Assembly (NCBI GenBank): GCA_964016885.1
Contig: OZ024763.1
Coordinates: 4,402,001-4,466,000 of the forward strand
Source: Eledone cirrhosa
Lineage: Eukaryota
Reading direction: 5' to 3'
Length of the DNA: 64,000 bases
Below are positions 2,354 through 57,505 of this stretch, piece by piece. The position numbers were made by a program, and so were the translations under genes. Below the pieces are notes generated by a model. That model worked only from the letters and a program-made list of their open reading frames with translations. It ran no database searches and had not been told where the DNA came from. Each line of letters opens with the position of its first letter. Positions within the stretch are counted from its first letter, which is position 1.

Positions 2354-2716
2354 CAGATGACATTTATTGTATTCAGCCAGCCATTTAGAGTGATAAATTA
2401 CTTGTTTGTTGTTTAAATATGAAACTGACTGGCCTATCTGCTAATATGCAAATCTGGTTGATCAGCCAATCTGCTATGCAAATCAGGCTGATCAGTCACT
2501 GTGTATATTTTAGAAAATATCATATATTTTCACTAGCTCTGACAGTTGGCAGGTGAGCAGTATACTGCACTGATGAAGGGTAATCACTCAGAAACATTAG
2601 TGTCTGCAGTTCTGTTTACATGCCAACACAAGAGCCTGAATGATGGGGTCATTCTACTGACATGGCTATTAAAGAGGTTGTTTGCATAATAATATTAAAA
2701 AAACTCAGATTACATT

Positions 2717-5361: not shown

Positions 5362-5413
5362 TATATATAAATTATATATATTATATATGTATTATATATA
5401 TATATATATATAT

Positions 5414-5837
5414 ATAATATAAGATCAAAAGATGGTTAAAGGAGTTCCATATATTTTATTATGCGCATTTCAAAAACAAACATCATCAAACAATAATATT
5501 TGTGTTTTCATCAGATAAAACAGGAGAACATGATATGAAGGCTAAAAAACACTTGTTGATAGTGCAGTTTTAAATCAACATATGTTGATTTAAAACTGCA
5601 CTATCAACAAGTGTTTTTTAGCCTTCATATCATGTTCTCCTGTTTTATCTGATGAAAACACAAATATTATTGTTTGATGATGTTTGTTTTTGAAATGCGC
5701 ATAATAAAATATATGGAACTCCTTTAACCATCTTTTGATCTTATATTATGTATACTCCAGTCCCACAAACTGTAGAGTGCTTCTTATCCGATATCTGCAT
5801 TGCTTTATTGTACTACAATAAAACTCACCTCCTACAT
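5414..5837 (+). mobile_element. Fold-back Penelope-like mini-element: perfect 336-bp palindrome (5414-5749) plus about 88-bp tail, in (TA)n
   Basis: 168-bp arms, no spacer, centre CAACAT/ATGTTG at 5581/5582. Confidence 0.85.
5643..5709 (+). ncRNA. Type-I hammerhead ribozyme motif (mirror copy on minus strand at 5454-5520)
   Basis: TTTTAT-CTGATGA-16-bp stem II with G-U pairs and GTTT loop-GAAA-TGCGCA-TA-ATAAAA. Confidence 0.88.
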
Positions 5838-5855
5838 TATATATATATATATATA

Positions 5856-6068
5856 GTAATAATAATAAATTTGAAGACTAAAATCCAAAGAGGGCTCGAT
5901 AAGGATAAATATATATCAAATATATAAGAACCGTAGAGCAAATATTTATTAAAATAACAGATTAAAGTTTAAGCAAAGAATCGCTGCTTTCACCCTTAAC
6001 TTCAGTAGATCTCGTTAAGGGTGAAATCAGCGATTCTTTGCTTAAACTTTAATCTGTTATTTTAATAA

Positions 6069-6072
<4 letters not shown>
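5856..6072 (-). mobile_element. Fold-back mini-element in (TA)n; unfolded relatives at about 8180-8255 and 30498-30562
   Basis: 59-bp arms 5942-6000 and 6014-6072, 13-nt spacer, tail 5856-5941. Confidence 0.8.
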
Positions 6073-6101
<29 letters not shown>

Positions 6102-6179
6102 ATTATATATATATGTAAAATCCAGATTACTGCAGCAACTGGTTTCAGCTGAAACTGCATGGTGCCGCATTTGGAATTT

Positions 6180-8035: not shown

Positions 8036-8274
8036 TCGATCTCGATCTCATTTATCTCATTTATTTGGACTGGTAACAATATATATATATATATATATAT
8101 TATATGTATACACTCACACATATATAATTTTTTATGTGTATTTGGTGTATACGTTTGTATGTGTGCTGATTGATATTTTTAGTTTCAGAAGATCCCGTTA
8201 AGGGTGAAAGCAGCGATTCTTTGCTTAAACTTTAATCTGTTATTTTAATAAATATATATATACATATATATATT

Positions 8275-8330
<56 letters not shown>

Positions 8331-8489: not shown

Positions 8490-8752
8490 ACCCCTGGTAG
8501 GCATTCTATAGATATCTCCATGTCACCTTGATCACTTTGACCGACCAGTCTGTCGTGCTGTTTTACCCATAAGATAACGCCATCCCCCTGGCTGGGCAGG
8601 CAGGCCGGTACTCATTTCTACAGCTGAGTAAACTGGAGCAACGTGAAATAAAGTGTCTTACTCAAGGAAACAACACATCAGCCGCTCCGAGAATTGAACT
8701 CACAACCTTTCGATTGCAAGGCCAATGCTCTAACCACTAAGCCATGCGCCTT
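8490..8752 (-). mobile_element. SINE family B-type copy
   Basis: Reverse complement of the same tRNA head and middle; related degenerate copies near 1505-1780, 8855-8930, 9125-9225 and 32840-33030. Confidence 0.8.
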
Positions 8753-19421: not shown

Positions 19422-19452
<31 letters not shown>

Positions 19453-19458
<6 letters not shown>

Positions 19459-19823
19459 AACAAAAGATGGTTAAATGAGTTCCATGTATTTTATTATGCG
19501 CATTTCAAAAACAAATATCATCATGCAATAACATTTGTGTTTTCATCAGATAAAATAGGAGGACATGATATGAAGGTTAAAAAACACTTGTGGATAGTGC
19601 AGTGTTTTTTAACCTTCATATCATGTCCTCCTATTTTATCTGATGAAAACAAATGTTATTGCATGATGATATTTGTTTTTGAAATGCGCATAGTAAAATA
19701 CATGGAACTCATTTAACCATCTTTTGATCTTATATATTATGTATACTCCAGTCCTACAAACTGTAGAGTGCTTCTTATCCGATATCTGCATTGCTTTATT
19801 GTACTACAATAAAACTCACCTCC

Positions 19824-19826
<3 letters not shown>
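19453..19826 (+). mobile_element. Second fold-back copy of the 5414 family
   Basis: About 135-bp arms, 12-nt spacer (19589-19600), same tail ending AAAACTCACCTCCTAC-(AT)n. Confidence 0.85.
19634..19698 (+). ncRNA. Type-I hammerhead ribozyme motif, same family as 5643
   Basis: TTTTAT-CTGATGA-stem II-GAAA-TGCGCA-TA-GTAAAA; differences from 5643 keep the pairing. Confidence 0.85.
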
Positions 19827-19888
<62 letters not shown>

Positions 19889-30461: not shown

Positions 30462-30611
30462 ATTATTCGATATACAAACTTTACATACATGTTTAGAGCA
30501 GAGTTTCAGAAGATCTCCTAAATGAGTGAAAGCAGTGATTCTTTCCTTAAACTTTAATCTGTACACGCAGACACACACACATATATATGTGTGTGTGTGT
30601 GTGTCTGTGTG

Positions 30612-56922: not shown

Positions 56923-57505
56923 GTTAAAAATGTACATCCACATATGTATACTGAAATACTAGTATGCATATGAATACACACACGTATACATATGTAGATG
57001 TACCGAGTTTTTCACTGGTCACTTTACTGTGAGTGTCCAGCTATTCTGTATGTAAACACACAGACAAACCGGTTTTTAGAGTCATACTGGTTTTTGAGGA
57101 AACACCTTTCCTCTATTCTCCAGAAAGCCAGACAAGGAATATTGAACTAGTTTCGATGTTGTTACATCTCATCAGCAATATTTACCTATCTTCCGGCCTC
57201 TCTAGAGAATCGTAAAAGCACATATCGTTATATGCTTTTTCTATGAAAATTAGTAGTGGGCAGACTAACTTGCATAGAGCATGAGTACGTACCGGTTCAA
57301 CGGAGACGATAAAAACAAATAACGAAACGAAATTAAATTTCGTTTCGTTTGTAACTCACTTTTGTATGACTGACGCTTAAACAATTAAGTTAAAAATGTA
57401 CATCCACATATGTATACTGAAATACTAGTATGCATATGAATACACACACGTATACATATGTAGATGTACCGAGTTTTTCACTGGTCACTTTACTGTGAGT
57501 GTCCA
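56917..57505 (-). mobile_element. Hammerhead-containing unit with 123-bp terminal direct repeats (pLTR/retrozyme-like)
   Basis: 56917-57039 identical to 57383-57505 (period 466 bp); abuts (TA)n; central hammerhead. Confidence 0.85.
57138..57182 (-). ncRNA. Canonical minimal type-I hammerhead ribozyme motif
   Basis: Minus strand AATATTG-CTGATGA-GATGT aaca ACATC-GAAA-CTAG-TT-CAATATT; all three stems pair perfectly. Confidence 0.9.

What the first reader, a model, noticed from the sequence alone, without database searches (positions are those of the whole stretch)
19453..19826. Second copy shows the inverted arm is made anew at each insertion, and the ribozyme stem is conserved
Seen: substitutions separating this copy from 5414 (AATGAGTTCCATGTA, ATAGGAGGAC, CATGCAATAACATTT) appear in both arms. 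The turn point differs (12-nt spacer), yet the outer end of the inverted arm falls at the same internal TA-like motif (CTTATAT..). Stem II changes (U-G to U-A, A-U to G-U) keep the pairing. Inference: the nascent cDNA folds back and self-primes, then joins the target (TA)n by microhomology at a fixed internal site.
Basis: partly seen in the sequence, partly recalled or inferred. Interest (0 to 1): 0.7.

Follow-up and report, generated by a model that had tools for sequence, protein, structure and literature searches.

The report
Two-armed Penelope retrotransposon stump
This mirror-image insertion is one of about ten thousand stumps of a known kind of jumping gene; its two halves were likely copied separately from the element's RNA onto both ends of a cut in the host DNA rather than by one copy folding back, and many such stumps stop at what is likely the RNA's first letter.

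Summary
The sequence observation holds. The locus is a 5'-truncated insertion of a Hydra-clade Penelope-like retroelement (PLE): intact ~800-aa ORFs exist in this genome and the 3' tail 31-mer occurs 10,356 times. An inverted truncated copy plus a one-sided tail is the published PLE footprint. The arm is made per insertion: turn points vary, no allele is arm-specific, and arms share subfamily alleles. Fold-back of the tail-primed cDNA is not supported. The '12-nt spacer' is antisense element sequence. The inverted arm is usually the longer one (33 vs 11 of 62), 5 loci have arms with no shared sequence, and the tail can sit on either arm. 22 of 27 centres at the commonest stop have loops under 3 nt. 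Best reading: both ends of a (TA)n break prime cDNA at two RNA sites about 85 nt apart (one of each in 30 of 35 insertions), then join head to head. About half of the arms stop at one base, often with an extra C, likely the capped 5' end. Stem II is under pairing selection without covariation. The scan found such palindromes before on other DNA.

The parts
19425..19456 (.). (TA)16 target microsatellite, left flank; its last bases overlap the TA-like inner start site of the inverted arm
   Evidence: sequence
19450..19603 (-). Inverted arm: antisense copy of the pLTR from the inner start site (about -86/-81) to element position -242; includes the so-called spacer
19487..19557 (-). Type I hammerhead ribozyme motif on the inverted arm (full-length stem II, intact core)
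   Evidence: landmarks; cleavage not tested
19589..19600 (-). '12-nt spacer': element sequence present only on the inverted arm
19601..19603 (.). 3-nt microhomology at the head-to-head junction
19601..19827 (+). Sense arm: 3' 227 nt of the PLE pLTR, 5'-truncated at -227
19632..19700 (+). Type I hammerhead motif on the sense arm: core 19640-19646, GAAA 19681-19684, palindromic stem III 19684-19691, predicted cut after 19692; private A>G at 19693 and 2-nt deletion at the base of stem II
19726..19740 (+). Inner reverse-transcription start site (inferred): TA-like stretch where the tail-less arms end
19741..19827 (+). Tail of about 85 nt, present on one arm only; in tandem copies it continues into the 5' leader and ORF
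19828..19883 (.). (TA)28 target microsatellite, right flank
5409..5836 (+). Copy A, another subfamily: both arms stop at -257 and form a zero-spacer palindrome centred at 5581/5582

Best explanation
This is a 5'-truncated insertion of a Hydra-clade Penelope-like retrotransposon whose two arms were likely made by two separate reverse-transcription reactions, one primed from each end of a likely endonuclease cut in a (TA)n tract. Shown: element ends fall at two fixed sites about 85 nt apart (tail end and inner TA-like site), used about equally and mostly one of each per insertion; either arm can be the long one; arms come from the same subfamily; junctions carry microhomology or small inserts; about half of the arms that reach position -257 stop there. 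Inferred: the GIY-YIG nuclease cuts both strands; each 3' end primes internally on the RNA with a few bases of TA pairing; the two antisense cDNAs stop independently and their 3' ends are annealed or end-joined and filled in. Inferred with less certainty: both use one RNA molecule, with the inner-primed cDNA usually leading, and -257 is the capped 5' end of the transcript, so short palindromes are double run-off copies of the 5' pLTR.
For: Family: 821-aa open frames in many copies, Hydra motifs, tail continues into the ORF. Two sites: 5,623 inner and 5,001 tail ends on the forward strand (reverse counts are inflated by multiple counting); paired ends mixed in 30 of 35, p=2e-5 against 50%. Polarity: of 46 short unbiased two-arm loci the inverted arm reaches further 5' in 21, equal in 22, shorter in 3; including long arms 33/18/11 of 62. 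Tail arm 97 nt or shorter in 9 of 72, under 81 nt (no shared sequence) in 5. Among 20 full-ORF loci, 6 have a tailed inverted arm with the sense arm ending at the inner site and 5 the reverse. Centres at -257: loop 0 in 17, 1 in 4, 2 in 1, of 27; genome-wide 1,184 strand hits for the zero-loop centre against 19 for the simplest hairpin product. Stop at -257: 4,334 arm ends followed by C, A or T plus the palindromes, against 5,179 read-through-type hits and 397 departures one base earlier; C is 2,143 of 4,334 there and 21 of the first 100 listed at the control. In vitro, an anole PLE protein cleaves and extends both strands and starts at two internal RNA sites that define the tail (PMC11167929).
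Against: All evidence is from genome footprints; no RNA holder was available and no biochemistry was done. Copy B taken alone (12-nt loop, 3-bp pairing) is also compatible with fold-back of the inner-primed cDNA. 11 private variants are shared by both arms in 74 loci (51 unshared), which copying of one cDNA would also give. 5 of 35 paired insertions use the same site twice. Many of the C's after -257 could be templated by the partner arm, so the cap reading is only moderate. PMC11167929 found no homology between cut DNA and RNA start site, whereas here the inner site is TA-like. Target-site duplications cannot be read in (TA)n. 19 of 91 unbiased loci gave no inverted-arm call: 4 were cut by the locus edge, some were missed by the script, and some have none.
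Confidence: 0.7

Rival explanations
1. Hybrid fold-back: both ends prime, but the inner-primed cDNA folds back and copies itself to make most of the sense arm, which then joins a short tail-primed stub.
For: Fits the polarity (inverted arm usually longer), copy B's 12-nt loop with 3-bp pairing, stubs ending near -93 and the 11 shared private variants.
Against: Cannot make the tail-arm-longer loci (L101, L103, L076, L108; full-ORF loci L134, L135, L137, L145, L147). Cannot easily make loops of 0-2 nt (22 of 27). The simplest hairpin product is rare, 19 hits (one register only was counted). In 4 of 4 two-arm loci with an indel at the stem II base it is on one arm only (three of these were selected by likeness to B).
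Confidence: 0.15
2. One reading: the tail-primed cDNA folds back, self-primes, copies itself to the inner TA-like site and joins the target there. A related self-priming idea, on an antisense template, was proposed in PMC3846280.
For: Fixed outer end at a TA-like motif; arms share subfamily alleles; palindromic centres are common.
Against: Needs the sense arm to be at least as long as the inverted arm: false in 21 of 46 short loci and in copy B itself. Five loci have no shared sequence between arms. The tail lies on the short inverted arm in 6 full-ORF loci. Zero-loop centres dominate.
Confidence: 0.07
3. Two RNA molecules on a protein dimer, each copied independently from one end, or later gene conversion making the arms alike.
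For: Same-site pairs exist (5 of 35). A dimer is predicted for the anole protein (PMC11167929). Two RNAs from one active source would also give matching arms.
Against: Free choice of site would give about 50% mixed pairs, not 30 of 35. The length bias towards the inner-primed arm suggests one shared template. No clear cross-subfamily chimera in 74 loci (largest difference 2 diagnostic sites). Conversion does not explain fixed ends or arms without overlap.
Confidence: 0.06
4. A fold-back or MITE-like DNA transposon, or a self-contained palindromic element that moves as a unit.
For: A modal form of about 430 bp with a perfect palindrome occurs at roughly 600 loci.
Against: No arm-specific allele (lowest p=0.10 over 155 sites). 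Turn points range from -44 to beyond -3000. The same perfect centre occurs in different subfamilies (copy A type and copy B type). The sequence is the 3' end of an RT-encoding element.
Confidence: 0.02

Closest known systems
Hydra-clade C-terminal-EN Penelope-like elements, e.g. Hydra-1_Obim and Penelope-13_HM (PMC8557442)
   Same: Single ORF with DKT motif, RDDGL core, CxCx5C linker, CxxC and CxH motifs, no CCHH; hammerhead near the 3' end; (TA)n targets; Penelope-13_HM is listed with a 5'-truncated inverted copy.
   Different: A different family (its hammerhead and protein differ from Hydra-1_Obim by eye; nearest database proteins 32-38% identical). Unit 3.6-3.9 kb rather than under 3 kb, with a repeat-rich 3' UTR and a ~70-aa Asn-rich insert before the linker. 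RW followed by T or I, not K.
General EN+ PLE insertion layout: inverted 5'-truncated copy plus one-sided tail (PMC8557442, PMC3846280, PMC2377424)
   Same: Head-to-head inverted pLTR, partial tandems, tail on one end only, palindromes at the junction.
   Different: Tail about 85 nt instead of 30-40 nt. The self-priming origin suggested in PMC3846280 does not fit the arm polarity here.
Anole Poseidon (PAc) in vitro mechanism (PMC11167929)
   Same: Two internal RT start sites that bound the tail; both strands cut and extended; AT-rich target; uncleaved RNA as main template (only 87 departures at the ribozyme cut site here).
   Different: There both sites lie inside the ORF and lack homology to the target; here they lie upstream of the ORF and the inner one is TA-like. 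That paper does not address the inverted arm in the parts I read.
L1 twin priming (passages of PMC11702581)
   Same: Second priming by the other DNA end; microhomology junction; extra G from the cap at full-length 5' ends.
   Different: In L1 the two cDNAs cover adjacent, almost non-overlapping parts of the RNA; here they usually cover the same region twice and start at fixed sites.
Animal non-LTR retrozymes (bioRxiv 10.64898/2026.07.22.740005)
   Same: Type I hammerhead related to PLE pLTRs.
   Different: This is not a tandem non-coding monomer; it is the truncated end of a coding element.

Membership tests
EN+ Penelope-like element | Single ORF with RT and C-terminal GIY-YIG endonuclease | tested here: met
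   800-aa ORF aligns by eye motif for motif with the RT and EN of published Hydra PLEs. Pfam and PDB gave no hit, so the domain call rests on that comparison.
EN+ Penelope-like element | Partial tandems forming pLTRs | tested here: met
   pLTR upstream of the ORF in most of 20 full-ORF loci; tail continues into the ORF leader.
EN+ Penelope-like element | Adjacent inverted 5'-truncated copy and one-sided tail | tested here: met
   72 of 91 unbiased loci called two-armed; tail on one end in 30 of 35 paired ends.
EN+ Penelope-like element | Type I hammerhead motif in the pLTR | tested here: met
   Core bases near-invariant in 212 arms, the only common core change being at the variable seventh base; stems I and II fold. 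Folding z-scores are weak (-0.4 to -1.7). Cleavage not testable.
Hydra clade | DKG modified to DKT; CxCx5C linker; no CCHH; CxxC and CxH motifs | tested here: met
   All seen in P0002 against the definition in section 11 of PMC8557442.
Hydra clade | RWK motif | tested here: inconclusive
   RW present, third residue T or I; K or E in relatives.
Hydra clade | Insertion into (TA)n | tested here: met
   106 of 121 loci continue ATATA or ATTAT after the tail.
Hydra clade | Generally short (<3 kb) | tested here: not met
   ORF start to 3' end is 3.3-3.8 kb. The paper gives this as a tendency, not a rule.
Hydra clade | Placement in the RT phylogeny | not tested
   Reference proteins were seen only as text in the supplement; no tree built.
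Fold-back transposon or MITE | Fixed internal structure and arm-specific lineages | tested here: not met
   Variable turn points, no arm-specific allele.
Non-LTR retrozyme | Tandem non-coding hammerhead monomers | tested here: not met
   Head-to-head end fragments of a coding element.
Structured RNA under covariation | Compensatory double changes in stem II | tested here: not met
   No pair with a recurrent change on both sides in 225 arms; only one-sided wobble switches. Recurrent variants keep pairing in 6 of 8, singletons in 2 of 17, p=0.004. R-scape itself not available.

The most novel reading that the evidence does not exclude
One PLE protein dimer primes both ends of a (TA)n break on a single capped RNA at two fixed sites; the inner enzyme leads, the tail enzyme follows by strand displacement, both often run off the 5' end and copy the cap, and the two cDNA ends anneal. 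The thousands of MITE-like palindromes would then be a genomic map of the element's transcription start and direct in vivo evidence against self-priming as the origin of PLE inverted repeats.
Probability: 0.4. Interest if true: 0.65.

Novelty: new member of a known kind. Interest (0 to 1): 0.42.

Why it matters
The layout is already described, so the locus itself is ordinary. How PLE inverted repeats form is still called open in PMC8557442, and PMC3846280 proposed self-priming. This family has about ten thousand young copies and many intact ORFs, and its ends give sharp predictions (two start sites, one of each, inner arm longer, stop at -257) that can be tested with the published in vitro assay. 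It also means short palindromes of this kind can be mistaken for MITEs in repeat annotation.

Tried and rejected
Rfam found no hammerhead in the window at gathering thresholds, only a tRNA-like hit. Pfam and PDB sequence searches did not recognise the protein or its relatives. Ribozyme-cut RNA as a source of 5' ends: 87 departures at the predicted cut site, about what point mutation in some 20,000 arms would give by my estimate and far below the -257 stop; ends joined through a T would be missed, and no neighbouring-base control was run. The core and stem I counts were contaminated by out-of-register matches and were replaced by the stricter count; the stem II counts come and include one probable misaligned variant. 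The HHR part and the layout part failed and were rerun. Target-site duplications could not be read in (TA)n. L001-L030 are best hits to copy B and were kept apart as biased. L031-L120 come from the first 100 tail hits on contig C1 (90 of 100 fetched), so they favour intact tails, and a few are two ends of one insertion (L059/L060). No arm tree was built; nearest-neighbour and allele tests were used instead.

Full report
Setting. The window lies in a 3.0-Gb animal assembly rich in (TA)n. The host was not established. Element coordinates below count back from the last C of the tail (0 = window 19826).

Observation. Copy B has an inverted arm at about 19450-19603 and a sense arm at 19601-19827 between (TA)16 and (TA)28. 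Copy A (5409-5836) is a perfect 168-nt palindrome plus tail. Over -250..-96, A and B differ at 10 sites and 9 are in both arms of B. Both inverted arms end at the same TA-like site near -86/-81. So the description is right. But each of the 9 alleles occurs in 7-58 other unbiased loci, and B's private changes are on one arm only. They show that both arms came from one subfamily, not that one arm was copied from the other. The 12-nt spacer is antisense element sequence: the inverted arm ends at -242, the sense arm starts at -227, and they overlap by 3 nt.

What the element is. A 31-mer from the tail has 10,356 exact hits. Longer copies lead into a 3' UTR and an ORF, and in tandem copies the tail runs on into the ORF leader. 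A protein search listed 69 matches, many with open frames of 806-831 codons; an 800-aa example is P0002. It has the DKT, RDDGL, CxCx5C, CxxC and CxH motifs and lacks CCHH, which is the definition of the Hydra clade in PMC8557442 (section 11 read). By eye it follows the published Hydra alignment (supplement hits). Nearest database proteins are 32-38% identical. Pfam and PDB gave nothing. The supplement already lists an octopus Hydra family with another ribozyme sequence and a Hydra family with an inverted truncated copy. No tree was built.

The arm is made at each insertion. In 121 loci the sense arm starts anywhere from -44 to beyond -3000. Of 91 unbiased loci, 72 were called two-armed; the inverted arm's outer end was the inner site in 60, the tail end in 4 and undetermined in 8. 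No allele is arm-specific over 155 sites, and arms are identical at all scorable diagnostic sites in 60 of 74 loci, against 13% of random pairs. Mean arm-to-arm divergence is 1.2% and the median to other copies 5.5%, but the partner arm is strictly the closest sequence in only 6 of 74 loci. A unit-moving fold-back element is excluded.

Fold-back of the tail-primed cDNA fails. It predicts that the sense arm reaches at least as far 5' as the inverted arm. Base-level mapping of 46 short unbiased two-arm loci gave inverted further in 21, equal in 22 and sense further in 3. With long arms included the split was 33/18/11 of 62, p=0.001; some of the 11 are alignment over-extensions. In 5 loci the tail arm is under 81 nt and shares nothing with the inverted arm. 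Among 20 full-ORF loci, 6 have the tail on the inverted arm with the ORF-bearing arm ending at the inner site (L131, L138, L143, L144, L148, L149) and 5 the reverse (L134, L135, L137, L145, L147); the other 9 lack an arm, lack a mapped 3' end or are complex. Fold-back also needs a loop: of 27 loci with both arms at -257, 17 have no loop, 4 have one base and 1 has two. Genome-wide the zero-loop centre has 1,184 strand hits and the simplest hairpin product 19 (one register only).

Two start sites. Forward-strand counts of ends into TA repeats are 5,623 at the inner site and 5,001 at the tail. Pairing the listed ends on the first 36 Mb of C1 gave 30 mixed, 3 inner-inner and 2 tail-tail pairs. This matches PMC11167929 (parts 1-2 of 4 read), where a purified PLE protein cuts and extends both strands and starts at two internal RNA sites that bound the tail. 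The inferred path is: cut in (TA)n, priming from both ends, independent stops, then joining of the two cDNA 3' ends. Junctions show overlap in 19, a flush join in 3, a short insert in 20 and a long gap in 4 of 46. The bias towards a longer inner-primed arm and the one-of-each rule suggest one shared RNA, but two RNAs or a hybrid fold-back cannot be excluded; 11 private variants are shared between arms and 51 are not.

A hard stop at -257. In 46 short unbiased loci, 30 inverted and 24 sense arms end at -253..-259, whatever the partner does. Genome-wide, arms ending at this base are followed by C 2,143, A 1,613 and T 578 times, beside 1,184 palindrome hits and 5,179 read-through-type hits. One base earlier there are 397 departures, 21 of the first 100 being C. 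The site resembles an initiator motif (consensus recalled, from no call). The Drosophila Penelope transcript starts inside the pLTR (PMC2377424, passages and section 15), and an extra G from the cap marks full-length L1 5' junctions (PMC11702581, passages). So -257 is likely the capped 5' end, and palindromes like copy A would be double run-off products annealed through their self-complementary last four bases. Caution: many of the C's could come from the partner arm, and a strong RT pause is an alternative. No RNA holder was listed.

Ribozyme. Both arms carry a type I hammerhead motif with an 8-nt palindromic stem III; that such stems work as dimers is recalled, not read. Core bases are near-invariant in 212 arms. 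In stem II, recurrent variants keep pairing in 6 of 8 cases and singletons in 2 of 17, p=0.004; all are one-sided wobble switches, with no compensatory pair. Arms do not pile up at the predicted cut (87 hits), in line with uncleaved RNA being the template.

What is known. The inverted truncated copy and one-sided tail are described as typical in PMC8557442 (passages), which also calls their formation unresolved. PMC3846280 (passages) proposed self-priming on an antisense template. Searches for a published two-ended or run-off model for PLE inverted arms found none, but the library lacks most subscription papers, including older PLE reviews that I did not see. PMC13282606 (passages) counts Penelope families in an octopus without structural detail. 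PMC3681739 (passages) mentions long inverted repeats without a mechanism. The retrozyme preprint was read in part 1 of 5 only, and its supplements were not seen. Earlier notes of this scan reached the same two-ended reading on other genomes and on retrozymes in this genome; I treat them as leads, not support.

Verdict. Real, a new family of a known clade with a known layout. The value lies in the testable end statistics, above all the reciprocal tail, the arm polarity and the stop at -257.

Noticed in passing
window 5856-6110: A second, unrelated head-to-head palindrome with a one-sided extension sits in the TA tract next to copy A; related pieces at 8184-8289 and 30505-30562. Probably another PLE family with the same footprint.
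   Followed up: partly
window 2564-2610 (+) and 57139-57181 (-): Two further hammerhead-like motifs of other sequence.
   Followed up: no
window 8679-8751 (-): tRNA-like Rfam match, 33 bits; likely the head of a tRNA-derived SINE.
   Followed up: no
L132:4461-6860 (P0002, about residues 575-650): An Asn/Thr/Pro-rich insert of about 70 aa before the EN linker, absent from 8 relatives; recalls the Asn-rich inserts of rotifer Penelopes in PMC3846280.
   Followed up: no
L101, L015 3' UTR: An internal (TA)n tract just after the stop codon in one subfamily (47 units in L101), where other copies have only a few bases; may be an expansion or a self-insertion target.
   Followed up: no
L024 and L028, upstream of the element: Another palindromic element with a similar hammerhead (same stem I start, different stem II) inserted in the same TA tracts; useful for a wider covariation test.
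   Followed up: no
L007, L011, L016, L029, L100, L117 junctions: Junction inserts of 10-84 nt, several made of short re-copied pieces of the arm ends, suggesting repeated template jumps during joining.
   Followed up: partly
G000:C11:25301156-25301201 and five similar places: Tiny palindromes whose two arms both end at the predicted ribozyme cut site (6 pairs among 87 hits).
   Followed up: no
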